Part shown: positions 8,892-32,000 of the stretch, in pieces
How the letters are laid out: each line of letters opens with the position of its first letter
Numbering within the stretch: position 1 is the stretch's first letter
Assembly (NCBI RefSeq): GCF_000619845.1
Contig: NZ_JHUX01000003.1
Span: 1,540,064-1,572,063 of the forward strand
Source: Alkanindiges illinoisensis DSM 15370
GTDB lineage: Bacteria; Pseudomonadota; Gammaproteobacteria; Pseudomonadales; Moraxellaceae
Reading direction: 5' to 3'
DNA: 32,000 bases
The notes under the pieces: generated by a model
Databases searched by the model: none
Seen by the model: the letters and a program-made list of their open reading frames with translations, nothing else
Told to the model about the DNA's origin: nothing
Program-made: the position numbers and the translations under genes

Positions 8892-8967
8892 GTCCCTATC
8901 GTCTAGAGGCCTAGGACATCGCCCTTTCACGGCGGTAACCGGGGTTCGAATCCCCGTAGGGACGCCA
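8892..8967 (+). tRNA. tRNA-Glu (anticodon TTC)
   Basis: GTCCCTATCGTCTAGAGGCCTAGGACATCGCCCTTTCACGGCGGTAACCGGGGTTCGAATCCCCGTAGGGACGCCA is close to E. coli tRNA-Glu. The anticodon loop is CTTTCAC. Confidence 0.95.
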
Positions 8968-9004
8968 TATTCGATTTTGCTGTCTGTCAGGATGGCAAAC
9001 TTGC

Positions 9005-9036
9005 AAAAAGCCCAGTCAATTATGATTGGGCTTTTT
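9005..9036 (+). terminator. rho-independent terminator after tRNA-Glu
   Basis: gcccagtc (9010-9017) pairs with gattgggc (9024-9031) with one G-U pair, followed by TTTTT. Confidence 0.75.
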
Positions 9037-9130
9037 GCATTTTAGTGTTCCGGATTTTGATTTCAATTGCTAACTTTTTAGCTGCTGCATTTGGACAACT
9101 GACAGGTTTGTAACAAAACTATAATACGGC

Positions 9131-15984: not shown

Positions 15985-16078
15985 AATCTGGCCTAAATAC
16001 GGCAAGATGGCTGAAAAAAGCTGAGTTTTATGGTTTAATTTCGCGCTTAGCATTTGCAAGTAACTAATGCTAATTAAT

Positions 16079-16151
16079 ACGCCCTTAGCTTAACTGGATA
16101 GAGCAGTTGCCTCCTAAGCGACCGACGTGGGTTCGAGTCCCGCAGGGCGTA
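16079..16151 (+). tRNA. tRNA-Arg (anticodon CCT)
   Basis: The cloverleaf was drawn by hand. The acceptor pairs ACGCCCT/AGGGCGT, the D arm is GCTT...GAGC, the anticodon stem is GTTGC/GCGAC with loop CTCCTAA, and the T arm is GTGGG-TTCGAGT-CCCGC. CCA is not encoded. An A1-U72 first pair is unusual. Confidence 0.85.
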
Positions 16152-16199
16152 CTTCTTCTTAAAGAAATAAATAGCTATATATTAGAAAGTATCTTTAAA

Positions 16200-16646
16200 T
16201 TAATCAGGTTTAACGCCAAAAAACATCTCCCCTTCAAAGGTAAAGCACAAACACCACGTATAGTTTGAACCTATAAAATAATGATGTTGTGGTATTTCCA
16301 GAATACGATTTAAACAACTCATCATTACCTCTACACTGCCGCTTATTGCAAAATCTGTAGCACTATCTCCTACCCATACGATCTCACCATTTAAATGGTA
16401 TTTTTCGGACATTAGCCTAAAAAACTTAATAAAACTTTCTATCTCTAATTGCTTCGTTAAATTTTCTTCATAGCTTTTCTCAAATATTTTTAGTTTTTCC
16501 CAGTCAATTTGGTTGTGTTTTATCGGATAGTATTTTTCCAAGTTTGTACAATAAGATTCACTACTGGCTAATATATGCAACTCAGAAGAACAAATTTTCT
16601 TTTCTAAATCAACTAATAGGTTTTCTTCGAAATAATTTAAACTCAT
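16200..16646 (-). CDS. hypothetical protein (148 aa), AT-rich islet gene 3
   Basis: This is a tracked ORF with AAGGAA 7 nt upstream of the ATG. I recognise no family. The C-terminus HHYFIGSNYTWCLCFTFEGEMFFGVKPD loosely recalls small immunity-type proteins. Confidence 0.6.
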   Translation of the reverse strand: MSLNYFEENLLVDLEKKICSSELHILASSESYCTNLEKYYPIKHNQIDWEKLKIFEKSYEENLTKQLEIESFIKFFRLMSEKYHLNGEIVWVGDSATDFAISGSVEVMMSCLNRILEIPQHHYFIGSNYTWCLCFTFEGEMFFGVKPD

Positions 16647-16660
16647 TCATTTCCTTTTTA

Positions 16661-17038
16661 TCAAAAAATTATAGCTTTTATTGATACAAAAATTATTTTA
16701 TATAAATTAATATTTTCTAAAGCATCCTTAATTGTTCCTGCTAATTTTGGAAAATTATTCGCCTTACACTTTAATGCATCAATTGCTTTTCTTTTATCCA
16801 AGCAACTATGATTTCTGGCAATGTGGCCTAAACATATTACTGCTATGGAGGCTATAGCCAAGACTTTATTTTCAAGAAAATTCATACAAATCCTTTGATT
16901 ATACTGCCAATCGTTTTCACCATATAAAACCAATGCTAATAAAGCATTTATAACCTCTTTCTCATCTGTAGAGCCAAGCATTTGCGTTAAGTTTAATTCA
17001 TCTACTTTAAAAATTTCTTGGTATAACAATACTTCCAT
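16661..17038 (-). CDS. hypothetical protein (125 aa), AT-rich islet gene 2, possibly helical-repeat
   Basis: This is Met14 of tracked ORF 16661..17077. AAGGA lies 7 nt upstream and overlaps the stop of the preceding gene. The protein is rich in predicted helices (EVINALLALVLYGENDW...LAIASIAVICLGHIARNH). Confidence 0.55.
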   Translation of the reverse strand: MEVLLYQEIFKVDELNLTQMLGSTDEKEVINALLALVLYGENDWQYNQRICMNFLENKVLAIASIAVICLGHIARNHSCLDKRKAIDALKCKANNFPKLAGTIKDALENINLYKIIFVSIKAIIF

Positions 17039-17048
17039 TGGCTTATCC

Positions 17049-17483
17049 TTAAACCCCATATACTGAAATTCCATCAACTTGATCTTGTATATTTATTTCA
17101 AGAAATTTTATTACTATAGACAATAACTTTAAAATTTCACTTTTATACGATTCAAAATTTTCTACTACTTCTTTTGTGATGTCTTTGAACATTAAATGAA
17201 TATGTTGAGCAGGTAAAAAAGACGCCTCTAATATCTTTCCCCTGAATTCTTGCAATCTTTCTTTAATTACTTTCATTTTTGCTAAATTCAAATAAGTAGT
17301 GCCCCAATGTGCATAAGGATGCTCGCCCTCGAACCAGAATCTTTTAATTAATGAAAAAGCCTCTTCGTGCATAACAATAGATTTTTCAAAATCAGGATTG
17401 GTCACTTCATCAAACGGTGCTATTTGAAAGAATGATCCTATTTGAAAACCATCTTTCTCTTTAACTGTAAAATCTACTTTCAT
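17049..17483 (-). CDS. hypothetical protein (144 aa), AT-rich islet gene 1
   Basis: This is a tracked ORF with no family recognised. It is tightly coupled to the next gene. Confidence 0.55.
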   Translation of the reverse strand: MKVDFTVKEKDGFQIGSFFQIAPFDEVTNPDFEKSIVMHEEAFSLIKRFWFEGEHPYAHWGTTYLNLAKMKVIKERLQEFRGKILEASFLPAQHIHLMFKDITKEVVENFESYKSEILKLLSIVIKFLEINIQDQVDGISVYGV

Positions 17484-17717
17484 AATATTTACTCAATACT
17501 TGTTAATTTAAATACATCTATGGGCATACATGATAATGCGTTTCTATTTAGCCTAACATTTTTCTACTCAGCAGATGAGTCTTCATCAAAAAAGCGTTAA
17601 AATGCACGCATACGATGCCGACGGCATACAAAAAATACGCCCTTTATGCGTTGGACTTTTCATCCAGCATCCCAAGCGTTTAACTCAGTTTTGACTTCAT
17701 TTATTTAGGATATATCC

Positions 17718-19436
17718 ATGCGCGCCAGCCGCTTAATGTTTGCTACTTTACGCGAAACTCCCGGTGATGCCGAGGTAATCTCGCACCAGCTCATGCTCCG
17801 TGCAGGCATGATTCGTAAACTGGCTACCGGTCTGTACACGTGGCTGCCGCTGGGTGTGCGCGTGCTAAATAAAGTAACGGCCATTATTCGTGAAGAAATG
17901 AATAAAAGCGCCATGGAAGTGCTGATGCCAGTGACCCAGCCGATTGAGCTATGGGAAGAATCTGGTCGTGCGCAGGCTTATGGCCCGGAACTGCTGCGCT
18001 TCCGTGATCGCCATGACCGCCCGTTTGTGCTTGGCCCAACCCATGAAGAAGTCATTACTGACCTGGCCCGTCAGGAACTAAAAAGCTACAAGCAATTGCC
18101 AGTGAATTTTTATCAGGTGCAAACCAAATTCCGTGATGAAATCCGCCCGCGTTTTGGTGTCATGCGTTCGCGCGAATTTATCATGAAAGATGCTTATTCG
18201 TTTCATGCCAATCAAGCGTCACTGGAAGAAACCTATCAGGGCATGTATGACACTTATCATGCCATTTTCAACAGATTGGGCCTGAATTTCCGTGCAGTGC
18301 AGGCCGATACAGGTTCGATTGGCGGTAATGGTTCGCATGAGTTTCATGTACTGGCCGACAGCGGTGAAGATGACATTGCATTTTCTACAGAATCCGATTT
18401 TGCAGCCAATGTTGAAATGGCCGAAGCCGTAGTTACTGGCACACGTCCTGCCCCAACGCAGGCCATGCAGGTCGTCGATACCCCCAATGCGAAAACCATT
18501 GAGGAAGTGAGCAATTTCTTAAATGTAAGTCCAACCCAGACTGTTAAAACCTTACTGGTGCGTGGTGTAGCGGATGACACTAATCCCAACAGCAAGGGCA
18601 AATATGGTCTGGTTGCATTGGTACTGCGCGGCGACCATGAACTCAATGACATCAAGGCAGAAAAACTGGAACAGGTTGCCGCACCGCTAACCTTTGCCTC
18701 AGAAGATGAAGTCAAGGCACTGGGTCTGGAAGCTGGTTCCATCGGGCCACAAGGGTTAAGCATTCCTGTTATCGTAGACCGTGCCGCATCGATACTGGCC
18801 GATTTTGTGGCCGGGGCTAATCAGGCAGGCAAGCATGTGACTGGCCTGAACTGGGAGCGTGATGCACAAATTACCCAAGTGGCAGACATCCGCAACGTGG
18901 TGAATGGTGATCCTTCACCTGATGGTAAAGGCATCATTAACATCAAGCGCGGTATTGAAGTGGGCCATATTTTCCAGCTTGGCCAAAAATACTCTGAAGC
19001 CTTAAATTGCAAGGTGCTGGGTGAAGATGGCAAGCCATTTGTGGTGACCATGGGCTGCTATGGCATTGGCGTGACACGTGTGGTAGCCGCTGCCATTGAG
19101 CAAAATTTTGATGACAAGGGCATTATCTGGCCACAAAGCATTGCACCGTTTGCAGTGGCGATTGTGCCCATGAATCAGGCCAAATCGCCACGTGCTGTTG
19201 CCGCTGCCGAGGAACTGTATAACGAATTACTGTCCGCTGGCTTTGATGTGCTGCTGGATGATCGCAATGAACGTCCGGGTGTGAAGTTTTCTGATCTTGA
19301 ACTGATTGGTATTCCGCATCGTATTGTGGTGTCCGAACGTGGTCTGGATGCAGGCACGTTTGAATACAAGGGCCGTCGTGATAGTGATGCACGTGAACTC
19401 AGCAAGGATGAATTATTGGCGGTATTAGAAGGTTAA
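17718..19436 (+). CDS. proS: proline--tRNA ligase
   Basis: The 572-aa protein is colinear with E. coli ProS ([40 protein letters not shown]...[27 protein letters not shown]). Confidence 0.97.
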
Positions 19437-23824: not shown

Positions 23825-24019
23825 TGCTAGGGATTTCAGGCATAATGAAATATCGATCAAATTGTATCTGAAAGGCAAATGATGTGCAAAAGCTAATAAA
23901 AATGCTGTTGTTGGTATAAGTGTTAGCTAGAAAGTAAGAAACAGAATTGATCAGCGAAAGCTGGCAAATAGATAATAAAAATAATCGTCTTTTTATTCTT
24001 TAGAATTTAGAAAAGTAAA

Positions 24020-24046
24020 TGGGGTGGCTAATGGGACTCGAACCCA
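24020..24046 (-). repeat. tRNA-His 3'-end fragment (att-type repeat), copy 1
   Basis: The revcomp TGGGTTCGAGTCCCATTAGCCACCCCA corresponds to the T-loop, acceptor 3' strand, discriminator C and CCA. It is nearly identical to the E. coli tRNA-His 3' end (GGGTTCGAATCCCATTAGCCACCCCA). No tRNA body lies upstream. Confidence 0.8.
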
Positions 24047-24163
24047 AGACATAAAAGACTAAAACAATATATAAAACACTTGCTTAGGTAATAATAAAAG
24101 CTAGTTTATGGCTTATATGGGAATAGCCTATCAAAAACGGCCTTGAGTGATGAAAAAGATGAA

Positions 24164-24190
24164 TGGGGTGGCTGATGGGGTTCGAACCCA
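24164..24190 (-). repeat. tRNA-His 3'-end fragment (att-type repeat), copy 2, divergent
   Basis: The revcomp TGGGTTCGAACCCCATCAGCCACCCCA has the same layout as copy 1 but differs at four positions (T-loop GT vs AC, and acceptor TAGCCAC vs CAGCCAC). Confidence 0.8.
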
Positions 24191-24426
24191 AAATTATTCG
24201 CCCCTAAAGTCCATATAAATTATTGAGTTATATAGATATCTTTTTAAAATTTACTTTATATGGGAATTAAACAGCTCATAAATGCTTATTTATCTATCGG
24301 TGATAAATTTGGTTGGCTAAAATTTATGGCCATATTTGTTTTTATATAATAATTGGCTTTAATTGCTTTTATTTGATAATAAAAATGCCTGAATAAATCA
24401 GCACTCAATCAATAAATATAAAAATA

Positions 24427-25584
24427 CTAGGTATTAATGTAATTGTTAATTTTGCTTAAATAGTCTGGTGCATCTTCAGCAATTAACTTGCCATAGTGTT
24501 TATAAATCATTGTAGTGTCTGTATGACCCAGCTGGTCAGCAATCCATTCTGGCGGTACACGGCCGCTGGTGAGCAGCTGGCTGGCAAAGGTGTGTCTGCC
24601 CTGGTTAATTCCACGCATTCTCACTTTTGCCTTACGCAAGTGCTTATTCCAGCGATAGCGTAATTCGTGGTATTCAAAATTGGTGGATTGTTCCTGGTTA
24701 ATCCATACAAACCGTACCTTTTCAACTTTATAGGTTTGGTTATCGCGCTGTAGCACGCGGATCGTCTGGCTCCTACGGTTACTGGTGATCTTATACTGCC
24801 TTCTCAATGCGTCCAGTGCTGGCTGCAGCAGCTTAATTTCACGGTTACGTCGACGATTTTTGGTGACGCGGAAAATTCCTTTCACATATGATCGGCTGAT
24901 CTGGATGGTGCCTTTATCCAGGTCTATATCTTCCCAAGCAACGGGAATTTGCTCAGAGATTGATAGGCCTGTCCAGAATAAGCAAGGCAACAAGTTTTCA
25001 ATATCCAGATCCGTCTGTGTATCCAGGATTGTATTAATTTCTGCCTTGGTAAATGGATCTGGCTCTGGCGTGTCCAGCTGCTGGATAGTGATCGTTTCAA
25101 AAGGGTTATAAGCAATCTTTTGTTCGTTGCGCCAGATAGTATGAATTGATGCCAGGCGTGTAACCACTTCTCGCACTGTTTTGGCATTAAGCGACTGTTT
25201 AAGTTCAAAAATCCATTTTTTGATGCTGTTGGTATCTATATCTTTAGGATGAACTTTACCCCACCGTGGTAATACATGCGTGTGCACTTGGCTTTTATAG
25301 GCATCAAAGGTACTGGGTGAAACTTCTTTGATGATGACATCTTTCCATATTGTTGCAAAATAGCTGATCTGGTTCTTTTCAATATGTTTTGAATTAGGAA
25401 AATGCTTGGCCAAGTTGAATTGGCCAAGCTCAATTTCCAGTTTAATGAGTTCTGATAATTTCCGGGCTTTATCAATATTTTCCGGTGTAGCTGACCAACT
25501 TAAAGTTTCTTTAATTTGCTCGGAACCTTCGGGCTTCATCCAGATCCGGATGCTATTGCCACGAACTTCTAAACCTGCTGACAT
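24427..25584 (-). CDS. int: tyrosine recombinase/integrase with an Arm-type (DUF3596-like) N-terminus
   Basis: The C-terminus RHTFASQLLTSG...LGHTDTTMIYKHYGKL carries the catalytic R/H/Y region. The N-terminus MSAGLEVRGNSIRIW is arm-binding-like. The start at Met19 has AGGAA upstream. The longer tracked start lies inside a terminator hairpin. Confidence 0.9.
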   Translation of the reverse strand: MSAGLEVRGNSIRIWMKPEGSEQIKETLSWSATPENIDKARKLSELIKLEIELGQFNLAKHFPNSKHIEKNQISYFATIWKDVIIKEVSPSTFDAYKSQVHTHVLPRWGKVHPKDIDTNSIKKWIFELKQSLNAKTVREVVTRLASIHTIWRNEQKIAYNPFETITIQQLDTPEPDPFTKAEINTILDTQTDLDIENLLPCLFWTGLSISEQIPVAWEDIDLDKGTIQISRSYVKGIFRVTKNRRRNREIKLLQPALDALRRQYKITSNRRSQTIRVLQRDNQTYKVEKVRFVWINQEQSTNFEYHELRYRWNKHLRKAKVRMRGINQGRHTFASQLLTSGRVPPEWIADQLGHTDTTMIYKHYGKLIAEDAPDYLSKINNYINT

Positions 25585-25618
25585 AATATTCCTGAATGTG
25601 TTTAATTTGCTTAATTTT

Positions 25619-25645
25619 AAAAAAACACGCCTCATCATAGAGGCG
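25619..25645 (-). terminator. rho-independent terminator between the cargo operon and int
   Basis: The minus-sense hairpin is CGCCUC-UAUGAU-GAGGCG (25628-25645), followed by UGUUUUUUU. Confidence 0.7.
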
Positions 25646-25669
25646 CATGCAAGGTGTGTTTGGGTGATT

Positions 25670-25930
25670 TTAATGAGGATGCCGGATTAACCGGATATAG
25701 CGGTTGGTTGGCCGACGCTCAATACAGCCCTGATTCCAATACGGTAAAAGCAGCTTTGCTACTTCGTCCCTACTGCATTGCAAACCCTGTTCAATACGGG
25801 CATACAGTCTTTTGACATTTATCCAAGTTGGGATAATTTTCTGCTTAAGCCGTTGTTGCTCAGATATTTCCATTTCATGCAACATGGCTACTGCATAAGC
25901 TTGAATCTCAACCGGGCTAGCTCCAATCAT
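25670..25930 (-). CDS. hypothetical protein (86 aa)
   Basis: This is a tracked ORF. Its start overlaps the stop of the upstream ORF by 4 nt. No family is recognised. Confidence 0.5.
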   Translation of the reverse strand: MIGASPVEIQAYAVAMLHEMEISEQQRLKQKIIPTWINVKRLYARIEQGLQCSRDEVAKLLLPYWNQGCIERRPTNRYIRLIRHPH

Positions 25931-26358
25931 GATTCAGCTTCCATTATTGGTATGACAACGAAATCGTCATCTTCAATGCAATCTGAATAGTCAATATCAA
26001 CTATCTCAAAAGCAGCTGGATCAAAACCTTCTTGATTAAATACAGAATTAATCCCATATCTATGAGCAGTACTGGGAGTACCAATATAATCATTGCCATC
26101 CCTGCAAACAGCTAAAACTAAAGGCCCTATTAGTTTTAGAACGGCTTTAACAATATCACCCTGACTGGCTCTAAGTCGGTCGTCATGACCTGACCAGAAA
26201 TTATTAAGCTCATGCAATTCAGCATCATCACACTTAACCAGTATGGTAAATTCCAAAAAGAAATCACCCATATTGTTACAGCTGACTTTAAATTTCCTAA
26301 CGAGTGTAGGCAGTTGGCTTTGGTGTTCTAGATTAACTACAGTAGAATCGTTTTGCAT
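25927..26358 (-). CDS. hypothetical protein (143 aa), acidic C-terminus
   Basis: The ATG at 26358 has GGAG 7 nt upstream. The tracked GTG start at 26385 lies inside a 13-bp hairpin. No family is recognised. Confidence 0.55.
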   Translation of the reverse strand: MQNDSTVVNLEHQSQLPTLVRKFKVSCNNMGDFFLEFTILVKCDDAELHELNNFWSGHDDRLRASQGDIVKAVLKLIGPLVLAVCRDGNDYIGTPSTAHRYGINSVFNQEGFDPAAFEIVDIDYSDCIEDDDFVVIPIMEAES

Positions 26359-26381
26359 TTTGCGTCTCCAACGTGAATGTG

Positions 26382-26413
26382 ACACAGGCAGAAGTGGCCG
26401 CTTCTGTCTGTGT
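26382..26413. other. 13-bp intercistronic hairpin
   Basis: acacaggcagaag (26382-26394) pairs with cttctgtctgtgt (26401-26413) around loop tggccg. One position is G-T on the plus strand, which becomes C-A in the minus-sense RNA. No U-tail follows. Confidence 0.6.
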
Positions 26414-26420
26414 GCTTGGT

Positions 26421-26741
26421 TTAACGGTCTTTCACTGGTAAGTAGTGAATCGGATCAATTTCAATATCTTTAAATGTGTCGTTATCCATTACGGCCAGAT
26501 CTGCAAGGCAGCACTGGGACACATAAAAATGTTCAAACAGTTCTGTACCCTCGCCTGTTTCCATATTGATGCTCTGTGAATACACGTGCTTATAGAAATG
26601 GGCTTGAGTGCAATTACCGCATTGGGTGCAATAAAACAGCTGATTGCCTTGCAACTCTGGAATAGTGAATAAAGCCTTTTCAGACTTCAGCTGGGTGAAA
26701 AAGGGACTGTCAAAATCAGGATCAATAGCATGTACATTCAT
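26421..26741 (-). CDS. hypothetical Cys-rich protein (106 aa), possible zinc-binding
   Basis: This is a tracked ORF carrying YCTQCGNC ... SQCC. Its ATGA start overlaps the upstream gene. Confidence 0.55.
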   Translation of the reverse strand: MNVHAIDPDFDSPFFTQLKSEKALFTIPELQGNQLFYCTQCGNCTQAHFYKHVYSQSINMETGEGTELFEHFYVSQCCLADLAVMDNDTFKDIEIDPIHYLPVKDR

Positions 26742-26974
26742 TTCTTATTGTCCTGAATAAATTCTTCTACTTTTTCACCAGTCTTTTCCCATACCTTGAT
26801 GAAGTCAGCCAAAGTTATATTTGGTGACTTAATTTCAACTTGGTCACTGTCAGCACGTTTGACTTGGAATTGCATCTTGATTGAAGAAAGATCAACGTCT
26901 TCATTCTCAATGATTTTAAGTAATGAACGATTTATCATTCTGGAAATTTCCAGATACATTGCTATAGCTTCCAT
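26738..26974 (-). CDS. hypothetical acidic protein (78 aa)
   Basis: This is a tracked ORF lying 22 nt downstream of the primase-helicase stop. Confidence 0.5.
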   Translation of the reverse strand: MEAIAMYLEISRMINRSLLKIIENEDVDLSSIKMQFQVKRADSDQVEIKSPNITLADFIKVWEKTGEKVEEFIQDNKK

Positions 26975-26996
26975 AGCTCTCTCCTAAAAATGGGAA

Positions 26997-29690
26997 TTAA
27001 TCCCTGTTGGCCACCGGCTTTTCAAAGATCCAGCAGCGGGTTGATTTGCGGGTGATGCGACTTGACACCATCCGGTTAGTTTCAATAAAGCGGTAATGCT
27101 GGCTGTGCCGCAGGGCATCCTGTAATTCCTGCATTGGCGGCAGCTGGTAGTGCAGATCTGAAGCGACCTTGTACAACTGGGGAAAGTTGATGGCGATCAG
27201 TGTGGATTTGGAGTGGTGATTCACCACTGATTCTTCAGTCAGTGACTTATGACCTTCGATTTGCTCAAAGGTGTCCCAGAAGTTTTGAACAATGACAGAA
27301 TCGGATTTGAGCACTTTGTCACGGCTAATGGCCATATTCACCAGTTCGCCCCTAACCTGATCCTGGATCTCTGCAGGCACAGTGATAAGGTGCTGGCACA
27401 TGGCATCAAACAGGGCCATCAGCTGGGCATGGTTATGCACTACCCGGCTGGACTGAATATTTAAGCTTTCCTGGTGCAGCTGGTTGTCATAATGATTTAG
27501 CTGCAGGCTATAGGTGTGCAGAACTTCTTTTTCTTTTTGCAGACATTCCAGAATAAACTGGCTCACATCTTCCAGCTCATACTTTGATAAACGGCGTGAA
27601 GCAACCAGGGTTTCTTTGGTCAGTTGATCCTTCTTAAAACCAACATGAACGATACGGCCCATCACCGCTTCAGATGCCATCACTTCCGCGTTCTGGCTGA
27701 TAATGACAGTGCCCATAAACGGTGGCTCATACGTTTCATTGCCGCCATTTTTTATGCCCTGTGCACCAAGCGAACCACCGTCATACAAAGTTTTAATAGT
27801 GTCCCAGTTGAACTGGCGTGATGCGTTCTCGCCCTGGCGATCTGATTCAATCAGTAACACTGGCAAATTGGATACTTGCCGAAAGGTACGTGTTAAACCG
27901 GCCTTACTGGTTTTGTTAGGATCTAAGCCTTCATAGTTGGCCCGGCCAAACAGTTTCCATAAGAACTGGATCAGGGTGGTTTTACCCGTACCAGGTTCAC
28001 CAACAATTTCAACGAATGGAAAAGACTTGTGCATGTGACGGATCTGCTGGGCATACAGGCTGCCAAAAAATGCAGTCAATGCCAGTAGGCCTTTCACCTG
28101 GAATGCACCAATAAAGTCATTTACCCAGGCTTTTTTATAATCTGCGAGCTGGGTGTTAATACTTAACTGGAATGGTGCACGGCTTTTTAAATTGATCTTG
28201 CGTGGCAATTCAAAATATTGCTCATTATTGATTTTGAACTGTTTGCCATTCTGATACGCGATATCACCCAATACATAGGTTTTTAGCTCATTGTGATAGC
28301 CCACGTAATTGATAAGCTGAACCCGTTTAATATCGGTAATCCAGTGTTCCAGCAATTTATCCAGCTGGCCACCTGATCCGGTGTATACCACGCCCGGAGC
28401 GATGGCCAACAGGCGTTTTTTAAACTCTGATGCGGCCGCCAGTTGCGAACCGGTAAAGGTATTTTGTACAGCCGGTGCATTACGCGGAAAATCAATATTG
28501 AAGAAATACCAGGCTTCATCGGTTTCATCGCTGTACTGGTAGTACAAAGCGGTAGGCTTGCAGTTAACAATCTTGGTAACGGTATTGCTATTTTTTAGCG
28601 CATTGTCACGGGCTTCCAGCTCTGCTTTTTCCTTCTCGGCTTCCAGCCAGTCTTCATTGTCCAGATCTGCCAGTTTTAAAGCATCGTTGTACTTGTCCAT
28701 GTCCAGCTTAAACCAGTAAAGCTGATTCATAAAATCAAATGGAAAGCTGTTATTCCCATGCCGGTTGTAAATTAGCAGGGCTTTTTCAACCGGCTTTTGG
28801 GCAGTCAGTAAATTGCCGTAATAACGGTAGTTTTCAAGATCATGGAAGCCTAATTTTTCGGCTTTATATAAGTCATTCCAATCAACTTTAGTACGGCCAG
28901 ATGGTGGCTGGGCTGCAAAACAGGTGAAACCGGCTTCAGTGGCTTTCCTGATATTTTTTTCAATACCGGCTTTGCCAGATGGATCGGCATCAAATGCCCA
29001 TACCAGTGTTGGTAGGGTCTTATTGGCTTCCCGGCACTTGGTGGCAATCTGTTCTAAGAAAATAGAGGGATAATTATTACTGGATAAGGCTGAAAAACTG
29101 GTAATGCCAGATAACCACAGGGCGATGGTGTCAAAAATCCCTTCAGTGATCCAGATTTCCTTGCTATCTAAATAATTAGTGTTGGGTGTTAGCCAGGCAT
29201 GGCCACTGGATGACCATTGCCACTTGAATGTGGTTTTCTGCAGTACACCTTTATCATCCAGAATGCGCTGCCACCAGCCTTCATTGCCAGCTTCATCTGT
29301 AATGGGAAAACGAACAGTGACTGAACCGACGTTTAATTCAGAGTTTTTATAATATTCCTGGGTATATAAGCCTTTTAGCTTATCCAGTGGAAATCCCCTG
29401 CCTTCGCACAGGTAAGCATCAACCGTTGCGGTCGGGTTTTCCTGAGTTGGCTTAAAGCGTTTTTCCCAGTTCTCAAATAGATCGGGGTACAAATCACGTA
29501 GATAAAACTGTTCGCCACAATGGTTGGTTCTAGGGCAGAACAATACCCAAGGGGCTTGTGCATGGGTCCATAGTTCTTTTTTATGGCAGCTGGGGCAAAT
29601 ACCACCACGCAAATGAGTGGCACTTTTCCTTTTAAACTGGAAGTCACGATCCAGTCGCACGAGTGCATCATTTAATGTTTCTGGGTACAT
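26997..29690 (-). CDS. bifunctional DNA primase/helicase (zinc finger + TOPRIM + SF3 P-loop helicase)
   Basis: The N-terminus has CPSCHKKELW...CPRTNHCG. The TOPRIM motifs are WITEGIFDTIAL and VWAFDADPSGKAG. The helicase has Walker A GEPGTGKTT, Walker B PVLLIESD and the SF3 motif C VIISQN. The ~170-aa C-terminal extension has unknown function. Confidence 0.85.
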   Translation of the reverse strand: MYPETLNDALVRLDRDFQFKRKSATHLRGGICPSCHKKELWTHAQAPWVLFCPRTNHCGEQFYLRDLYPDLFENWEKRFKPTQENPTATVDAYLCEGRGFPLDKLKGLYTQEYYKNSELNVGSVTVRFPITDEAGNEGWWQRILDDKGVLQKTTFKWQWSSSGHAWLTPNTNYLDSKEIWITEGIFDTIALWLSGITSFSALSSNNYPSIFLEQIATKCREANKTLPTLVWAFDADPSGKAGIEKNIRKATEAGFTCFAAQPPSGRTKVDWNDLYKAEKLGFHDLENYRYYGNLLTAQKPVEKALLIYNRHGNNSFPFDFMNQLYWFKLDMDKYNDALKLADLDNEDWLEAEKEKAELEARDNALKNSNTVTKIVNCKPTALYYQYSDETDEAWYFFNIDFPRNAPAVQNTFTGSQLAAASEFKKRLLAIAPGVVYTGSGGQLDKLLEHWITDIKRVQLINYVGYHNELKTYVLGDIAYQNGKQFKINNEQYFELPRKINLKSRAPFQLSINTQLADYKKAWVNDFIGAFQVKGLLALTAFFGSLYAQQIRHMHKSFPFVEIVGEPGTGKTTLIQFLWKLFGRANYEGLDPNKTSKAGLTRTFRQVSNLPVLLIESDRQGENASRQFNWDTIKTLYDGGSLGAQGIKNGGNETYEPPFMGTVIISQNAEVMASEAVMGRIVHVGFKKDQLTKETLVASRRLSKYELEDVSQFILECLQKEKEVLHTYSLQLNHYDNQLHQESLNIQSSRVVHNHAQLMALFDAMCQHLITVPAEIQDQVRGELVNMAISRDKVLKSDSVIVQNFWDTFEQIEGHKSLTEESVVNHHSKSTLIAINFPQLYKVASDLHYQLPPMQELQDALRHSQHYRFIETNRMVSSRITRKSTRCWIFEKPVANRD

Positions 29691-29710
29691 AGAATACTTC
29701 TAGTTAAAAG

Positions 29711-29893
29711 TTACAACGAATGCCGGAGGTTAGTTTGAATTTCACGTCCTGCCAGCTGCAGCAGTTTTTCCTGCAGTCGCTGCTTGAGCAAAAATTCAAT
29801 CGTTTCTTCCACGCTGGCAAGCCCCAAAAACAGTTGTACTTCCTGTACAACCTCTAATTCCTGATCGCTTAGGTCTATTGGTTTTGCTGGCAT
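29711..29893 (-). CDS. hypothetical small protein (60 aa)
   Basis: This is a tracked ORF that overlaps the upstream gene by 19 nt. It is acidic and helical. Confidence 0.4.
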   Translation of the reverse strand: MPAKPIDLSDQELEVVQEVQLFLGLASVEETIEFLLKQRLQEKLLQLAGREIQTNLRHSL

Positions 29894-30138
29894 ACTTCGC
29901 CGCTCCGCGAAAGGTGAGCAGTCGCGCCTTTGTTTAAAAATTTATCAAGGCTAAAGTCCGGCTCGATGTCATCAGCCAGCAGGATAGCCAGTGCCTGCTT
30001 CATCAGCATTTGGCGCATGATGACACCGGCTTGAATGCCAGTAATGTTGGCAGCGGCTTCAAATATCTTTGTTTCATCATCGGTCAGATTGATATTGAAG
30101 CGGTTGTCACGCTTTTGTTTTCTGATACGCAATGACAT
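29875..30138 (-). CDS. ribbon-helix-helix-like small DNA-binding protein (87 aa)
   Basis: RFNINLTDDETKIFEAAANITGIQAGVIMRQML has the beta-strand/helix/helix layout of RHH (MobC/CopG-like) proteins. GGAG lies upstream of the ATG. Confidence 0.5.
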   Translation of the reverse strand: MSLRIRKQKRDNRFNINLTDDETKIFEAAANITGIQAGVIMRQMLMKQALAILLADDIEPDFSLDKFLNKGATAHLSRSGEVCQQNQ

Positions 30139-30147
30139 GACCCGCTC

Positions 30148-30354
30148 CTAGTTCTGACTTTGGTTGGCATTTTGGCTGGCGAGCTTGCCGGCATAGTAAA
30201 ACTTGGCAATAACGCTAGAACGGCTGGAATCAGTCTGCTCTGCAATTTCATCCAGAAATTTGAGTTCTTCCGCTGGAAGATACAGGGCGCAACGCTCACG
30301 ACCACCTGAGATTTTGCGGGCGCGTGTCGATTTAGGTGAATTTGATGTGCTCAT
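30148..30354 (-). CDS. ribbon-helix-helix (CopG/Arc-like) protein (68 aa), Cro-position gene of the switch
   Basis: This is Met16 of tracked ORF 30148..30399. RERCALYLPAEELKFLDEIAEQTDSSRSSVIAKFYY has an RHH pattern. It is the first gene of the leftward operon and is divergent from the XRE gene. Confidence 0.55.
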   Translation of the reverse strand: MSTSNSPKSTRARKISGGRERCALYLPAEELKFLDEIAEQTDSSRSSVIAKFYYAGKLASQNANQSQN

Positions 30355-30379
30355 AAGGTAAACTCGGCCATAGTGATAT

Positions 30380-30401
30380 GCTATAGCCCAATATAGCACA
30401 A
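30380..30401. promoter_or_regulatory. candidate operator repeats in the divergent switch region
   Basis: The 8-bp palindrome GCTATAGC lies at 30380-30387. Tandem 10-bp repeats TATAGCCCAA and TATAGCACAA lie at 30382-30391 and 30392-30401. All sit between the divergent RHH and XRE genes. Confidence 0.4.
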
Positions 30402-30435
30402 ATATTTACCCTTTCAATAGAAATAGGTGAAATTT

Positions 30436-30891
30436 ATGTCTGATTCTTCAGATTCGAATATACATAGCGCCGAAAACATAGCGCATCGCTTTAATGATGA
30501 AGTCGCACGTAATGGCTTTAAGGCTAAAAGTTTGTCGCGTGATATTGGCGCGCATGAAAACACGCTGGGCAATTATGTTCGGGGCAAGGTGCCGGATCAG
30601 TGGGTGTATTTAGCCAGGCTGCATGAAAAAGGCATTGATATTCGTTATGTGCTGCTGGGCATTGACCCGGATTTTGCAGGGCTGACCAGTGAAGAAAGCC
30701 TGTTATTAAAAGCCTATCGGCAGATTAGTCCTGAAGGACAGGAAGCATTACTGGGTTTGGCCAAGGCCTATGCAAAAGATGGTGAAAAAAATGCAATGGT
30801 ACAAAGTCAGTATATGGAACCGCTTGATTATGATTTTGATTTGCCAAGCATTAAAATAAAAACTGATGACGATGAAAAATCGTCTGCATAA
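30436..30891 (+). CDS. XRE-family helix-turn-helix repressor (CI-like)
   Basis: The HTH is AKSLSRDIGAHENTLGNYVRGKVPDQWVYLARLHEKGIDIRYVLLG. The ATG at 30436 has AGGTGA 5 nt upstream. The tracked GTG start at 30427 lies within that SD. Confidence 0.8.
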   Translation: MSDSSDSNIHSAENIAHRFNDEVARNGFKAKSLSRDIGAHENTLGNYVRGKVPDQWVYLARLHEKGIDIRYVLLGIDPDFAGLTSEESLLLKAYRQISPEGQEALLGLAKAYAKDGEKNAMVQSQYMEPLDYDFDLPSIKIKTDDDEKSSA

Positions 30892-30921
30892 AAAAACCGG
30901 CAACTGAAAACCAGCTGCCGG
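30890..30921 (-). terminator. terminator between convergent genes (best in minus sense)
   Basis: ccggcaactg (30897-30906) pairs with cagctgccgg (30912-30921). The single mismatch is a U-G wobble only in minus sense. The A7 run at 30890-30896 gives a U7 tail in minus sense. Confidence 0.7.
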
Positions 30922-30938
30922 TGATACCACTGCCTAAA

Positions 30939-31520
30939 CTAACTATCCAGCTTATGCTGCACTTTCTCTAGCTTTTGCTCAATGTCCAGCAGCTTATACA
31001 CCAGGTCATTTAAATTATAGGTGACCTGCGGATTGTTGACTGCACTCTCCAGTGAGCTGCGCCAGATGCGGATGTTACCCAGTGCCATGTCCAGCAATAA
31101 ACCTGTGTCGGGCTGTTGATTTGGATTGACTTGCATAGTTCTCCTGTTGTCCGTTGATATTGTTTGGGTGCTGGCAATCCTGTTTAACTGAAAACGCCAG
31201 CCTGCCACCGCCTCATCATACCAAATGGAACTTTTTACAACGCCCGTTCCATGAAAAATTGGATATTTTGCGTCAGCCAGTGACGCAGTAATGTCTTCGA
31301 GTGGTGGCAGGGCTGGCTGTTCTTCCTGCTGTAATAAGGCTCTGATTTGCTCATAGGAAATCACCAGAAAACCATGCTGGGTAGTATGGTTGATGTTATG
31401 CCCCTGCTGCACCAGATAATCTACCGCAGCAAACAGTTGTTTAAGCACTTTGCGGCTTTTCTTGCAGGTGGCCATGACACGATCGCCAATGGGAACGTAA
31501 GGAATGATGGAATCGTTCAT
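30939..31520 (-). CDS. hypothetical protein (193 aa)
   Basis: This is a tracked ORF with no family recognised. The C-terminal ~40 aa look coiled-coil-like (LNDLVYKLLDIEQKLEKVQHKLDS). Confidence 0.6.
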   Translation of the reverse strand: MNDSIIPYVPIGDRVMATCKKSRKVLKQLFAAVDYLVQQGHNINHTTQHGFLVISYEQIRALLQQEEQPALPPLEDITASLADAKYPIFHGTGVVKSSIWYDEAVAGWRFQLNRIASTQTISTDNRRTMQVNPNQQPDTGLLLDMALGNIRIWRSSLESAVNNPQVTYNLNDLVYKLLDIEQKLEKVQHKLDS

Positions 31521-31657
31521 TTGGCACCTGCCTTGATTTTTGCAATCAGTTTGGCAAGCGTGCTTTGAGGTATAGCAAAGTTGGATGCGGTTAAGCGGTT
31601 ATAGCAGATAAGGTCGAATTGAGTGCTTGGACGTGCAGGTGCCTGACGTAACTTCAT
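31517..31657 (-). CDS. untracked 46-aa ORF, possible small HTH (AlpA/Xis-like) protein
   Basis: Manual translation gives MKLRQAPARPSTQFDLICYNRLTASNFAIPQSTLAKLIAKIKAGAK. The ATG is at 31655-31657 with the purine tract GAGAAAAG upstream. The stop overlaps the next ATG as ATGA. It falls below the 60-aa track cutoff. Confidence 0.5.
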   Translation of the reverse strand: MKLRQAPARPSTQFDLICYNRLTASNFAIPQSTLAKLIAKIKAGAK

Positions 31658-31665
31658 AGTCTTTT

Positions 31666-31900
31666 CTCGTGAATAAGTTTTAAGTTATCCACCACCTAAC
31701 TTTCCTAGGGTTAGGGTGGCAGATCAGACAAGGCTAGGAAAACCGCTTCACGAGTCGCGGCCAGCCCGAAGGCTGCCCCATCTGATCCACCATAAAAGTA
31801 TGACCAAACAGTTGGCAAAAAAATAGCCGCTGAAGCGACTGTGTTTTTGCGCTCGTGAAGTATATGCGAGTTTCCTAGGCTCGACACCGATTTTGCGGTG
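31666..31900 (-). ncRNA. candidate structured regulatory leader RNA with a three-site complementary box network
   Basis: In minus sense there is a central domain at 31715-31791. It is closed by an 11-bp helix (31715-31728 with 31781-31791) and contains a cUUCGg-capped hairpin (31759-31777). It has single-stranded boxes CUCGUGAAG (revcomp of 31746-31754) and UUUUCCUAG (revcomp of 31734-42). Complementary box pairs lie at 31852-31879 and at 31666-31709. A small hairpin plus U7 lies at 31816-31840. The wobble pairs and U-runs only work in minus sense. Confidence 0.55.
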
Positions 31901-32000
31901 TAAATATATCTTGTGTCATAGCGTGCTGTTATGTCAAGGGTTATTTAAGTACTATCATCTCCATAATACTAACATCTGGTACAACTGTTCTCACTAACTC

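What the first reader, a model, noticed from the sequence alone, without database searches (positions are those of the whole stretch)
31666..31900. Leader RNA with a central two-box domain complementary to box pairs on both sides: candidate RNA-based (P4 CI-like) immunity or attenuator
Seen in sequence: Box A, CTCGTGAA(G/T), occurs on the plus strand at 31666-31674 and 31852-31860. Its exact reverse complement CTTCACGAG lies between them at 31746-31754. Box B, TTTCCTAGG, occurs at 31701-31709 and 31871-31879, and its complement CTAGGAAAA lies at 31734-31742. On the minus-strand transcript, which is the direction of the downstream 46-aa and 193-aa genes, the central copies sit unpaired inside a folded domain. 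That domain is closed by an 11-bp helix with a 3-nt bulge and contains a hairpin capped by a C(UUCG)G tetraloop (31767-31770). Both outer B copies form exactly the 9-nt loop of a hairpin. The stems are 31689-31700/31710-31719 and 31867-31870/31880-31883. This is the geometry expected for loop-mediated (kissing) RNA-RNA contact. The downstream A copy (AUUCACGAG) runs straight into the purine-rich SD (GAGAAAAG) of the 46-aa ORF. Residues 31715-31719 are shared by the closing helix and the downstream hairpin, so the two folds are mutually exclusive. A 6-bp hairpin plus U7 (31816-31841) separates the upstream site from the central domain. Established knowledge: satellite phage P4 maintains immunity through CI RNA. 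Its seqB pairs with seqA and seqC in the leader of the same operon and causes premature termination. P4 also encodes a TOPRIM-primase/SF3-helicase (alpha) and an integrase that targets a tRNA. Inference: this element may use an analogous, unrelated-in-sequence RNA immunity or cis-attenuation device alongside a protein XRE repressor. I know of no described system with these boxes.
Basis: partly seen in the sequence, partly recalled or inferred. Interest (0 to 1): 0.8.

Follow-up and report, generated by a model that had tools for sequence, protein, structure and literature searches.

The report
C4/CI-type antisense immunity RNA leader
The boxes are real and they work through RNA, but this is an ordinary new member of the well-known C4/CI antisense "immunity RNA" family of phages P1, P7 and P4, sitting here in a P4-like integrated element of Alkanindiges illinoisensis with its own box sequences.

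Summary
Every coordinate in the observation checks out, and chance does not explain it. In 20,000 flank shuffles, none gave even one two-sided 8-nt complement; the window has two.

The central domain (31712-31797, minus strand) matches Rfam RF01695, the C4 antisense RNA family. It scores 69.8 bits against a gathering score of 45. P1 c4 scores 68.8 and P4 CI scores 74.9. The upstream part resembles isrK/P4 seqA at 35.6 bits, which is below threshold, as is P1's own upstream region at 35.1.

The geometry matches the annotated P1 sites:
- The downstream A copy overlaps the Shine-Dalgarno sequence of a 46-aa ORF.
- That ORF overlaps the 193-aa ORF by ATGA, as icd overlaps ant1 in P1.

Across 15 distinct leaders (13 from Moraxellaceae, plus P1 and P4) I found 12 different A boxes and 6 different B boxes. 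Both flanking copies track the central copy in every leader (0 of 200,000 permutations).

The claims "unrelated in sequence" and "no described system" are wrong. The box pair itself was not found anywhere else that I searched. Novelty: new member of a known kind. Interest is low to moderate.

The parts
31908..31937 (-). Probable promoter. The -35 is TTGACA (31937-31932), followed by an 18-nt spacer holding the invariant block CAGCAC.CTAT. The -10 is CAAGAT (31913-31908). The predicted start is about 31901.
   Evidence: TTGACATA.C.GCAC.CTAT and CAAnAT are invariant in 10 aligned leaders. The spacing puts the start at the first base of hairpin 1, which is model position 1 of isrK. The assignment is inferred. 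The consensus scan preferred a different weak pair.
31817..31901 (-). Short upstream RNA of the isrK / P4 seqA / P1 a1-b1 type. It has hairpin 1 (31901-31884, loop GCAAAAUC), hairpin 2 (31883-31867) with box B1 in its loop, single-stranded box A1, and an intrinsic terminator.
   Evidence: The Rfam isrK (RF01394) match is 35.6 bits, E = 4.6e-6, over 31901-31820, below the gathering score of 50. P1's own upstream region scores 35.1 and P4's scores 60.8. Hairpins 1 and 2 show compensatory changes in relatives.
31871..31879 (-). Box B1, CCUAGGAAA, the upstream copy of the B target. It corresponds to P1 a1.
   Evidence: It complements B' over 8 nt and sits in the 9-nt loop of hairpin 2.
31852..31860 (-). 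Box A1, CUUCACGAG, the upstream copy of the A target. It corresponds to P1 b1.
   Evidence: It complements A' over 9 of 9 nt.
31817..31840 (-). Intrinsic terminator that ends the short RNA: a 6-bp stem (31840-31825) followed by AUUUUUUU.
   Evidence: The same element is present in all relatives, in P1 and P4, and is the IsrK terminator in Gifsy-1 (PMC4825925).
31712..31797 (-). C4/CI-type antisense RNA gene. The predicted mature RNA is 77 nt, 31791 to 31715. Helices: P1 31792-31776 with 31733-31717; P2 31775-31762 with a UUCG loop; P3 31761-31742.
   Evidence: Rfam RF01695 at 69.8 bits, gathering score 45, E = 7.7e-12, full-length match. On its own it folds into the family structure at -41.3 kcal/mol. 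The ends are placed by alignment to the annotated 77-nt P1 C4 RNA: GGU at the 5' end and CCACC at the 3' end.
31746..31754 (-). Box A', CUCGUGAAG, in the P3 hairpin loop. It corresponds to P1 b'.
   Evidence: Mean probability of being unpaired in the mature RNA is 0.71.
31734..31742 (-). Box B', UUUUCCUAG, in the single-stranded joining region between P3 and the closing helix. It corresponds to P1 a'.
   Evidence: Mean probability of being unpaired is 0.73.
31689..31719 (-). Downstream hairpin that presents box B2 (CCUAGGAAA, 31709-31701; P1 a2) in its loop. Its 5' arm reuses the CCACC tail of C4.
   Evidence: Stem changes are compensated in relatives: CUAAC/GUUAG in the window against AUUC/GAAU.
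31666..31674 (-). Box A2, AUUCACGAG (P1 b2). Its 3' end, GAG, forms the Shine-Dalgarno sequence 8 nt before the AUG of ORF46.
   Evidence: In all 15 leaders the A2 copy lies at +30 to +39 from the C4 3' end. The start codon lies at +48 to +55 in the 12 leaders where it was located (P1 from its annotated icd start).
31517..31657 (-). ORF46, the first small ORF. It occupies the position of icd in P1, orf45 in Gifsy-1 and kil/eta in P4.
   Evidence: Homologous 44-aa ORFs are present in L012/L017 and L143. The N-terminus M(K/N).RQ.Q.R is shared with the 65-67-aa ORFs of the Acinetobacter relatives. It has no Pfam, PHROG or NCBIfam match.
30939..31520 (-). ORF193, the second and last gene of the controlled operon. 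Its start overlaps the ORF46 stop (ATGA). Function is unknown; I infer it is a derepression or antirepressor-module protein.
   Evidence: Matches phrog_25537 at 3e-44, function unknown. The family is small and found in Moraxellaceae. In relatives it always follows a Rha-family gene in the same operon. The AlphaFold model has pLDDT 71 and gives no fold match at E<0.001.
30896..30922 (-). Strong intrinsic terminator (12-bp stem plus U7) that ends the ORF46-ORF193 operon.
30427..30891 (+). Convergent 154-aa putative repressor. It separates the RNA-controlled operon from the primase-helicase operon (30399 down to 26997).
   Evidence: Support is weak: phrog_8, transcriptional regulator, 1.6e-5, and no Pfam hit. 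A repressor-sized gene holds the same position in relatives.

Best explanation
The region 31640-31937 (minus strand) is the leader of a C4/CI-type antisense immunity module. It is homologous to immI of phages P1/P7 (c4-icd-ant), to the seqA-CI-seqC region of satellite P4, and to IsrK-STnc1160-orf45-anrP of Gifsy-1.

**Proposed sequence of events**
1. A promoter at about 31937-31908 starts transcription near 31901.
2. Most transcripts stop at the terminator 31840-31817. This gives an RNA of about 85 nt that carries decoy copies B1 and A1.
3. Read-through transcripts contain the C4 domain. By analogy with P1, RNase P cuts before G31791 and a stable 77-nt RNA (31791-31715) is released.
4. This RNA has two single-stranded boxes: A' in the P3 loop and B' in the joining region. 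They pair with B2, presented in a hairpin loop just 3' of C4, and with A2, which overlaps the Shine-Dalgarno sequence of ORF46.
5. Translation of ORF46 is blocked. ORF193 is then not made either, through the ATGA translational coupling and probably through Rho-dependent polarity.
6. The short upstream RNA, or the A1/B1 segment acting in cis, can sequester A'/B' and so counteract the repression, as shown for IsrK.

The box sequences set the specificity, so elements with different boxes are heteroimmune.

**Shown here:** homology, structure, box geometry and three-way covariation.
**Inferred:** processing, the translation block, polarity, and the role of ORF193 in derepression.
For: **Family membership**
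- Rfam C4 match at 69.8 bits against a gathering score of 45, over the full model length. P1 c4 scores 68.8 and P4 CI scores 74.9 with the same model.
- The mature domain folds on its own into the family structure with both boxes unpaired.

**Geometry**
- The box positions coincide with the a1, b1, a2 and b2 sites annotated in the P1 GenBank record.
- P4 shows the same two-box arrangement.

**Covariation across 15 distinct leaders**
- There are 12 different A boxes and 6 different B boxes.
- The upstream and downstream copies always match the central copy over 7-10 nt, at constant offsets. A1 lies at -61 to -71, B1 at -79 to -90, B2 at +1 to +5 and A2 at +30 to +39. P4's upstream copies lie further away, at -144 (A1) and -160 (B1).
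- Non-cognate combinations average about 5 nt.
- The cognate statistic is 231. Permuted values average 144 +/- 8 with a maximum of 192, and 0 of 200,000 permutations reach the observed value.

**Chance and context**
- Chance is excluded within the window itself.
- A2 overlaps the Shine-Dalgarno sequence in every leader. ORF46 and ORF193 overlap by ATGA, as icd and ant1 do in P1.
- Sister elements place a Rha-family antirepressor-type gene in the same operon.
- The 5' GGU and the 3' CCACC tail, which mark the RNase P-processed ends of P1 C4, are present (PMC5320573).
- IsrK acts in trans on its own read-through mRNA, and the paper notes its likeness to P4 seqA/CI (PMC4825925).
Against: - There are no expression data for this organism. 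Processing, stability and the regulatory output are all inferred.
- The upstream part does not reach the Rfam gathering score for isrK (35.6 against 50), and RF03163 (c4-a1b1) gives no hit at E up to 10.
- The -10 element is weak (CAAGAT), and the promoter scan preferred another pair.
- ORF193 has no recognisable antirepressor domain, and the window's operon lacks the Rha gene found in most relatives. What the RNA ultimately controls is therefore unknown.
- Nested-structure folding cannot model loop-loop contacts, so cofolding does not by itself show the C4-target complex.
- In the unprocessed leader the predicted minimum-energy fold pairs A1/B1 with A'/B' in cis (-96.4 against -88.7 kcal/mol for the conformer with the canonical C4 fold). 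The balance between cis and trans action is open.
Confidence: 0.85

Rival explanations
1. The module works mainly as a cis-acting switch of the IsrK type, not as a trans-acting repressor RNA. The read-through leader folds so that A1/B1 pair with A'/B', giving a translationally silent mRNA. The short terminated RNA then acts in trans as an activator by displacing that pairing. Under this reading the main regulator is the 85-nt upstream RNA, not a processed C4.
For: The minimum-energy fold of the full leader pairs A1:A' and B1:B' in cis at -96.4 kcal/mol. The conformer with the canonical C4 fold is at -88.7. This mechanism was shown experimentally for the homologous Gifsy-1 locus (PMC4825925). 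The upstream segment ends in a good intrinsic terminator.
Against: The strict conservation of the C4 scaffold and of the RNase P-type ends argues for a processed trans-acting RNA, as in P1, P7 and P4. So does the exact conservation of the downstream B2/A2 sites over the Shine-Dalgarno sequence. The two modes do not exclude each other, and both belong to the same known family.
Confidence: 0.3
2. The output is premature transcription termination alone, as in the P4 textbook description, and it protects the replication genes from expression.
For: The element has a P4-alpha-like primase-helicase and an integrase. A sister element also has an Ogr/Delta zinc-finger gene. P4 CI pairing with seqA/seqC causes premature termination (PMC4825925).
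Against: The RNA-controlled operon here consists only of ORF46 and ORF193. It ends at a 12-bp-stem terminator (30922-30896), and a convergent repressor-like gene follows. The primase-helicase operon starts separately at about 30399. Any effect on replication would therefore be indirect.
Confidence: 0.1
3. The boxes are DNA operators bound by a protein such as the XRE-like repressor, and the RNA complementarity is incidental.
For: Box B contains the palindrome CCTAGG. The boxes flank a promoter-proximal region, and a repressor-like gene is nearby.
Against: - The central copies lie exactly in the two single-stranded elements of a conserved structured RNA that scores 69.8 bits against Rfam C4.
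- The boxes change completely between close relatives while staying reverse-complementary to the central copy. That relation is the one RNA pairing requires, and identical operator copies for one protein would not show it.
- The palindrome is present only in the window and L009.
- The A and B boxes reassort independently among elements, for example L001/L013 and L011/L014.
Confidence: 0.03
4. The repeats are chance matches or remnants of a local duplication with no function.
For: The boxes are short, at 8-9 nt.
Against: None of 20,000 shuffles reproduces even one two-sided 8-mer. The same geometry appears in 15 independent leaders with different sequences.
Confidence: 0.01

Closest known systems
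immI region of phages P1/P7: a1 b1 - c4 - a2 b2 - icd - ant1/ant2
   Same: - Same Rfam family, with nearly the same score (69.8 here, 68.8 for P1).
- Same 77-nt predicted mature RNA with a GGU 5' end and a CCACC 3' end.
- Same order and spacing of sites. The joining-region box has copies in an upstream hairpin loop and just after the C4 3' end. The P3-loop box has copies upstream and over the ribosome-binding site of the first small ORF.
- An intrinsic terminator lies between the upstream sites and C4.
- The small ORF overlaps the next gene by ATGA.
   Different: - The box sequences differ: CUCGUGAAG/UUUCCUAG here, UCACUAAC/CUGUCAA in P1.
- The small ORF (46 aa) gives no detectable Icd family match.
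- The downstream gene is an uncharacterised 193-aa protein, not Ant.
- The host element is an integrated P4-like island in a member of the Moraxellaceae, not a plasmid prophage.
- No C1-type operator could be identified.
Immunity region of satellite phage P4: seqA - CI RNA (seqB) - seqC
   Same: - Same RNA family (P4 CI scores 74.9 bits).
- Same two-box complementarity on both sides, and P4's upstream part matches isrK at 60.8 bits.
- The element type is similar: an integrase and a Toprim/SF3-type primase-helicase, plus an Ogr/Delta gene in the sister element L017.
   Different: - In P4 the upstream boxes lie 144-160 nt from CI. Here they lie 63-81 nt away.
- In P4 the controlled operon runs on into epsilon, orf151 and the alpha replication gene, and CI is the only immunity factor.
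- Here the controlled operon is two genes long and is followed by a separate protein repressor gene and a separate replication operon.
Gifsy-1 IsrK - STnc1160 - orf45 - anrP (Salmonella)
   Same: A short terminated RNA lies upstream of a processed CI-like RNA and shares complementary sequences with it. Read-through forms the mRNA for a small ORF that is translationally coupled to an antirepressor-type gene (PMC4825925). The window's upstream part aligns with the isrK model over its full length.
   Different: The isrK match is below threshold at 35.6 bits. In Gifsy-1 the small ORF overlaps the CI-like RNA, and the demonstrated effect is activation by the short RNA. None of this has been tested for the window.
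Acinetobacter baumannii 'Group 1' sRNAs, which are C4 homologues (Weiss et al. 2016, PMC5320573)
   Same: They are C4-family RNAs in the same bacterial family (Moraxellaceae). They are highly expressed and apparently processed at a GGW site. Their variable loop is proposed to set target specificity.
   Different: Those 21 copies have a different upstream 'Region 1' (loop CACAUU), and the authors suggested they target bacterial mRNAs. In the window and its relatives the targets are plainly in cis, on both sides of the RNA.
CA RNA of the anti-immunity (immA) region of N15-like phages
   Same: From my own knowledge, N15 has a small processed RNA of the P4 CI type that controls an icd-antirepressor operon. 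The only blastn similarity of the leader to deposited phages is a 78% match of the C4 core to the N15-like Klebsiella phage phiKO2.
   Different: I did not examine this in detail here. The similarity is limited to the C4 core.

Membership tests
C4 antisense RNA (Rfam RF01695; P1/P7 c4, P4 CI) | Match to the family covariance model at or above the curated gathering score | tested here: met
   69.8 bits against a gathering score of 45, E = 7.7e-12, model positions 1-87 of 87.
C4 antisense RNA (Rfam RF01695; P1/P7 c4, P4 CI) | A long closing helix enclosing a tetraloop hairpin and a second hairpin with a variable loop, followed by a single-stranded joining region | tested here: met
   The Rfam alignment and an independent minimum-energy fold of 31791-31712 at -41.3 kcal/mol agree. 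Helix pairs are kept with compensatory changes in relatives.
C4 antisense RNA (Rfam RF01695; P1/P7 c4, P4 CI) | The two single-stranded boxes are complementary to two sites downstream on the same transcript, and the distal site overlaps the ribosome-binding site of the first ORF | tested here: met
   B' pairs with B2 at +4 and A' pairs with A2 at +39. The GAG of A2 lies 8 nt before the AUG. The positions equal P1 a2 and b2.
C4 antisense RNA (Rfam RF01695; P1/P7 c4, P4 CI) | A second pair of complementary sites upstream (P1 a1/b1, P4 seqA) | tested here: met
   B1 at -81 and A1 at -63.
C4 antisense RNA (Rfam RF01695; P1/P7 c4, P4 CI) | Boxes and targets covary between related elements (the basis of heteroimmunity, as between P1 and P7) | tested here: met
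   15 leaders, 12 A boxes and 6 B boxes. The cognate statistic is 231 against permuted 144 +/- 8, with 0 of 200,000 permutations reaching it.
C4 antisense RNA (Rfam RF01695; P1/P7 c4, P4 CI) | Release from a longer precursor by RNase P, giving a stable RNA of about 77 nt | not testable with these tools
   Only the sequence signals are present: AU|GGU at 31793-31789 and a CCACC tail at 31719-31715, aligned to the annotated ends of P1 C4.
C4 antisense RNA (Rfam RF01695; P1/P7 c4, P4 CI) | Represses an antirepressor or derepression operon through a translationally coupled small ORF | tested here: inconclusive
   The ATGA overlap of ORF46 and ORF193 is present. ORF193 has no known domain or fold. 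A Rha-family gene occupies the operon in sister elements but not in the window.
isrK / P4 seqA-like upstream RNA (Rfam RF01394) | Match to the family model at or above the gathering score | tested here: not met
   35.6 bits against 50 (E = 4.6e-6 in a 601-nt search), aligned over the full model length. P1's own upstream region scores 35.1 and P4's scores 60.8.
isrK / P4 seqA-like upstream RNA (Rfam RF01394) | A 5' hairpin with a GCAAAAUC loop, a second hairpin, a single-stranded stretch and an intrinsic terminator | tested here: met
   Hairpin 1 at 31901-31884 with loop GCAAAAUC, hairpin 2 at 31883-31867, and the terminator at 31840-31817.
c4-a1b1 (Rfam RF03163) | Match to the family model | tested here: not met
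   No match at E up to 10 in 31400-32000. P1 scores 51.0 and P4 scores 44.1.
P4-like phage satellite | Integrase plus an alpha-type primase-helicase | tested here: met
   The 403-aa integrase at 24427-25638 has the Phage_integrase and Arm-DNA-bind_2 domains. The 897-aa protein at 26997-29690 has a Toprim_2 domain and matches phrog_1139 at E = 0; it also gives weak, below-cut-off matches to P-loop helicase-type families (MCM P-loop, DUF5906).
P4-like phage satellite | Ogr/Delta-type late activator, capsid-size and Psu functions, and cos sites | not tested
   The window ends at 32000, inside the element. An Ogr/Delta zinc-finger gene is present in the sister element L017 (Pfam 3.7e-15). I did not look for Sid, Psu or cos.

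The most novel reading that the evidence does not exclude
The Moraxellaceae elements may form a family of P4-like satellites in which the two boxes reassort independently, generating many immunity types. I saw at least 12 A boxes and 6 B boxes, and the same A box occurs with different B boxes. In this reading the terminated upstream RNA acts as a diffusible anti-antisense decoy, which would allow cross-talk between co-resident elements or with a helper phage. ORF193 would be a new kind of derepression effector that can work without the Rha partner. This would also recast the abundant Acinetobacter C4-like sRNAs as mobile-element immunity RNAs with cis targets, not as regulators of host mRNAs.
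Probability: 0.25. Interest if true: 0.45.

Novelty: new member of a known kind. Interest (0 to 1): 0.22.

Why it matters
**For annotation.** It supplies a correct reading of this region:
- a 77-nt C4/CI-type immunity RNA;
- its decoy sites and its target sites;
- the small operon it controls;
- evidence that the element is a P4-like integrative island in Alkanindiges.

**More broadly.** The set of relatives gives a clean natural experiment. Fifteen leaders share one scaffold but carry 12 A boxes and 6 B boxes. This shows that specificity in this family evolves by coordinated replacement of three copies of each box. It also shows that two strains of one species carry heteroimmune variants.

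The box pair of this element was not found in the IMG/VR viral contigs or the JGI metagenome contigs. It does not open a new kind of mechanism.

Tried and rejected
- **Whole-element search in phages.** Megablast of the element (24000-32000) against deposited phages found nothing. Distant blastn of the leader found only short C4-core similarity to phiKO2 and two others.
- **ORF193 in phages.** tblastn of ORF193 against phages found nothing.
- **Gapped target pattern.** Searching IMG/VR for CTAGGAAA N15-45 TTCACGAG gave 119 or more hits. These are chance matches, and none has a C4-like sequence nearby.
- **Exact A'-B' pattern.** The pattern gave no hit in viral or metagenome contigs. I therefore found no helper phage or other element with the same specificity.
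- **Promoter pattern in genome contigs.** The search gave only two true relatives, A. illinoisensis NFYY 23406 and A. bereziniae, plus four apparent chance hits.
- **ORF193 function.** Pfam, NCBIfam, PHROG, an AlphaFold model (pLDDT 71) and Foldseek against PDB and BFVD gave no significant match.
- **ORF46.** It gave no match to Icd or to any other family.
- **Cofolding.** RNAcofold of C4 with its target does not show the box pairing, because loop-loop contacts lie outside nested-structure models.
- **Failed look-ups.** Two exact-sequence look-ups (P0001, P0004) were not on record. Hartmann et al. 1995 is not held in the paper library.
Full report
**1. The observation**

On the plus strand, CTCGTGAA occurs only at 31666 and 31852 in the whole 32-kb window, and TTCACGAG occurs only at 31747. 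TTTCCTAGG occurs only at 31701 and 31871, and CTAGGAAAA only at 31734.

Read on the minus strand, which is the direction of the 46-aa and 193-aa ORFs, the order of sites is:

| Site | Sequence | Coordinates |
|---|---|---|
| B1 | CCUAGGAAA | 31879-31871 |
| A1 | CUUCACGAG | 31860-31852 |
| A' | CUCGUGAAG | 31754-31746 |
| B' | UUUUCCUAG | 31742-31734 |
| B2 | CCUAGGAAA | 31709-31701 |
| A2 | AUUCACGAG | 31674-31666 |
| AUG of ORF46 | | 31657-31655 |

These are the UUCG tetraloop (31770-31767), the 6-bp hairpin plus U7 (31840-31817), and the two hairpins that present B1 and B2 in their loops. The CCACC residues (31719-31715) are shared by the closing region of the central domain and the B2 hairpin.

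One detail differs. The closing helix is a continuous 17-bp helix that includes G-U pairs. It is not an 11-bp helix with a bulge.

Chance does not explain the pattern. I shuffled both flanks 20,000 times while preserving dinucleotide content. No shuffle produced even one segment of the central domain with an 8-nt complement in both flanks, whereas the window has two such segments.

**2. What it is**

A scan of the window against Rfam places the central domain (31797-31712, minus strand) in RF01695, C4 antisense RNA. The score is 69.8 bits against a gathering score of 45, E = 7.7e-12, and the match covers the whole model. This family contains the c4 repressor RNA of phages P1 and P7 and the CI immunity RNA of satellite P4. 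With the same model, P1 c4 scores 68.8 bits and P4 CI scores 74.9 bits.

Folded alone, 31791-31712 adopts the family structure at -41.3 kcal/mol. A' lies in the loop of the third helix and B' in the single-stranded joining region. Both are mostly unpaired, with a mean unpaired probability of about 0.7.

The upstream part (31901-31820) aligns over the full length of the isrK model (RF01394), but at 35.6 bits it is below the gathering score of 50. The corresponding region of P1 scores 35.1 and that of P4 scores 60.8. The paper on Gifsy-1 IsrK states that IsrK is a structural homologue of P4 seqA. It also reports that a processed CI-like RNA, STnc1160, lies downstream of it (PMC4825925).

**3. 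Comparison with the annotated P1 sites**

The P1 GenBank record annotates the following, in locus L015 coordinates:

| Feature | L015 coordinates |
|---|---|
| a1 | 8256-8262 |
| b1 | 8270-8277 |
| C4 RNA | 8344-8420 |
| a2 | 8424-8430 |
| b2 | 8453-8460 |
| icd | 8471-8692 |
| ant1 | 8689-9732 |

My complementarity scan recovers exactly these sites in P1 and finds the same pattern in P4 and in the window.
- The joining-region box has one copy in the loop of the second upstream hairpin and one copy 1-5 nt after the 3' end of C4.
- The P3-loop box has one copy upstream and one copy 30-39 nt downstream, over the ribosome-binding site of the first small ORF.

Aligning the window to the ends of the annotated 77-nt P1 C4 RNA predicts a mature RNA from G31791 to C31715. 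That is also 77 nt. It begins with GGU and ends with CCACC, the features reported for the RNase P-processed RNA (PMC5320573).

ORF46 and ORF193 overlap by ATGA, as icd and ant1 do in P1.

**4. Relatives and covariation**

The 193-aa protein is 100% identical to a protein of Alkanindiges illinoisensis (Moraxellaceae). It belongs to a small family found mainly in Acinetobacter.

I collected leaders from several sources:
- contigs that encode homologues of the 193-aa protein;
- IMG/VR viral contigs and GTDB genome contigs that contain the conserved promoter motif.

This gave 13 distinct Moraxellaceae leaders. Eight relatives match RF01695 at 61-74 bits and one more at 74.4 bits. The remaining three were found with an nhmmer profile built from the others.

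The scaffold is conserved, but the boxes are not. With P1 and P4 added, there are 12 different A boxes and 6 different B boxes. In every leader the upstream and downstream copies follow the central copy, with 7-10 nt of perfect complementarity at near-constant offsets.

Non-cognate combinations average about 5 nt. They reach cognate values only where two elements share a box. A permutation test that reassigns the flanks among the leaders gives an observed statistic of 231. Permuted values average 144 +/- 8.4 with a maximum of 192, and 0 of 200,000 permutations reach the observed value.

The A and B boxes also reassort. L001 and L013 share an A box but differ in B, and L011 and L014 do the same.

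A second strain of the same species (L017, identical to L012) carries a related element with different boxes, UCCUUUGUA and UUCCUAC. The two strains are therefore predicted to be heteroimmune, like P1 and P7.

This pattern is what RNA-RNA pairing predicts. It argues against protein operators, for which the copies would be expected to be the same sequence instead of the reverse complement of a copy held in an RNA loop.

**5. Context**

The element runs from an integrase (24427-25638) to beyond the end of the window. Reading leftwards from the leader, it contains:
- the promoter (TTGACA 31937-31932; the -10 is best read as CAAGAT 31913-31908, which is invariant as CAAnAT in 10 leaders);
- the short RNA;
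- the C4 RNA;
- ORF46 and ORF193;
- a 12-bp-stem terminator at 30922-30896;
- a convergent 154-aa putative regulator (30427-30891; support is weak);
- a separate minus-strand operon with ribbon-helix-helix-like small proteins and an 897-aa Toprim/SF3-type primase-helicase.

Chromosomal genes, a TonB-dependent receptor and a PepSY protein, lie to the left of the integrase.

The sister element L017 has an Ogr/Delta zinc-finger gene. It also has a Rha-family gene between the small ORF and the ORF193 homologue. The Acinetobacter relatives have the Rha gene as well. The window and L143 lack it.

The RNA therefore heads a short operon in the antirepressor position, as in P1 immI and Gifsy-1. It does not head the replication operon, as it does in P4.

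**6. How it most likely works**

- **Shown:** family membership, structure, site geometry and three-way covariation.
- **Inferred from P1/P7, P4 and IsrK:**
  - Most transcripts stop at the terminator after A1, giving an RNA of about 85 nt that carries B1 and A1.
  - Read-through transcripts are processed to the 77-nt RNA.
  - That RNA pairs through B' with B2 (a loop contact) and through A' with A2, and so covers the Shine-Dalgarno sequence of ORF46.
  - Without translation of ORF46, ORF193 is not made, because of the translational coupling and probably Rho-dependent polarity.
  - The A1/B1 segment can hold A'/B' in cis. In the full leader this conformer is predicted at -96.4 kcal/mol, against -88.7 for the conformer with the canonical C4 fold. 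As the short RNA it could also act in trans, opposing repression as IsrK does.
- **Unknown:** whether repression by C4 or activation by the short RNA dominates, and what ORF193 does. ORF193 gives no domain or fold match.

**7. Verdict**

It is wrong in calling the device unrelated in sequence and undescribed.

This is a new member of the C4/CI antisense immunity family, with a box pair that I did not find anywhere else. C4 homologues have already been reported in Acinetobacter (PMC5320573).

Interest is low to moderate. The main value is correct annotation, plus a tidy natural series of specificity variants.

Noticed in passing
L017:4875-5735 (identical to L012:9981-10840): In the sister element of A. 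illinoisensis NFYY 23406 the leader promoter motif occurs twice, about 840 nt apart (starting about 960 nt and 140 nt upstream of C4). The two copies flank a reverse-strand 255-aa ORF with an Excalibur calcium-binding domain. This looks like an insertion that duplicated the promoter.
   Followed up: partly
L001:1538-3544 and L142:119-3138: Relatives carry anti-phage defence genes divergent from the immunity leader. L001 has AriA plus AriB (PARIS; PADLOC 5.5e-24 and 4.2e-11). L142 has an AriA-like ATPase and an Mrr-type nuclease. The equivalent region of the window lies beyond position 32000.
   Followed up: partly
L001:6648-7197 (and L002-L008): A RelB/YafQ toxin-antitoxin pair follows the ORF193 homologue in the Acinetobacter towneri-type elements. 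The window has none at that position.
   Followed up: no
window 30939-31657, compared with L017:5993-7543: The window's RNA-controlled operon lacks the Rha-family (Phage_pRha) gene. In L017 and L001-L008 that gene lies between the small ORF and the ORF193 homologue. L143 has the same short layout as the window, so the short form is not unique to this strain.
   Followed up: partly
window 31871-31879 and 31701-31709: The core of box B, CCUAGG, is a palindrome. The B1 and B2 loops are therefore also complementary to each other and to themselves. This holds only in the window and L009, so it is probably incidental.
   Followed up: no
window 1928-2514: There is a tRNA cluster, Val(TAC)-Asp(GTC)-Asp(GTC)-Val(TAC), on the minus strand. 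The paired copies have identical Rfam scores.
   Followed up: no
window 16001-18000: A low-GC stretch (0.32-0.38, against about 0.46 elsewhere) lies directly after tRNA-Arg(CCT) at 16079-16152 and holds three small minus-strand ORFs. It may be a separate small island.
   Followed up: no
window 31711-31887 (-) and 31716-31826 (+): Mechanical ORFs of 58 aa and 36 aa lie across the isrK-like and C4 RNA region. They are most likely not genes, because the sequence there is constrained as structured RNA.
   Followed up: no
L001, L011, L142, L143 and P4 (L016:8420-8507): The joining-region box UUCUCAC of P4 CI is identical to the B' box of several Moraxellaceae leaders, although the hosts are distant. 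The A boxes differ.
   Followed up: no
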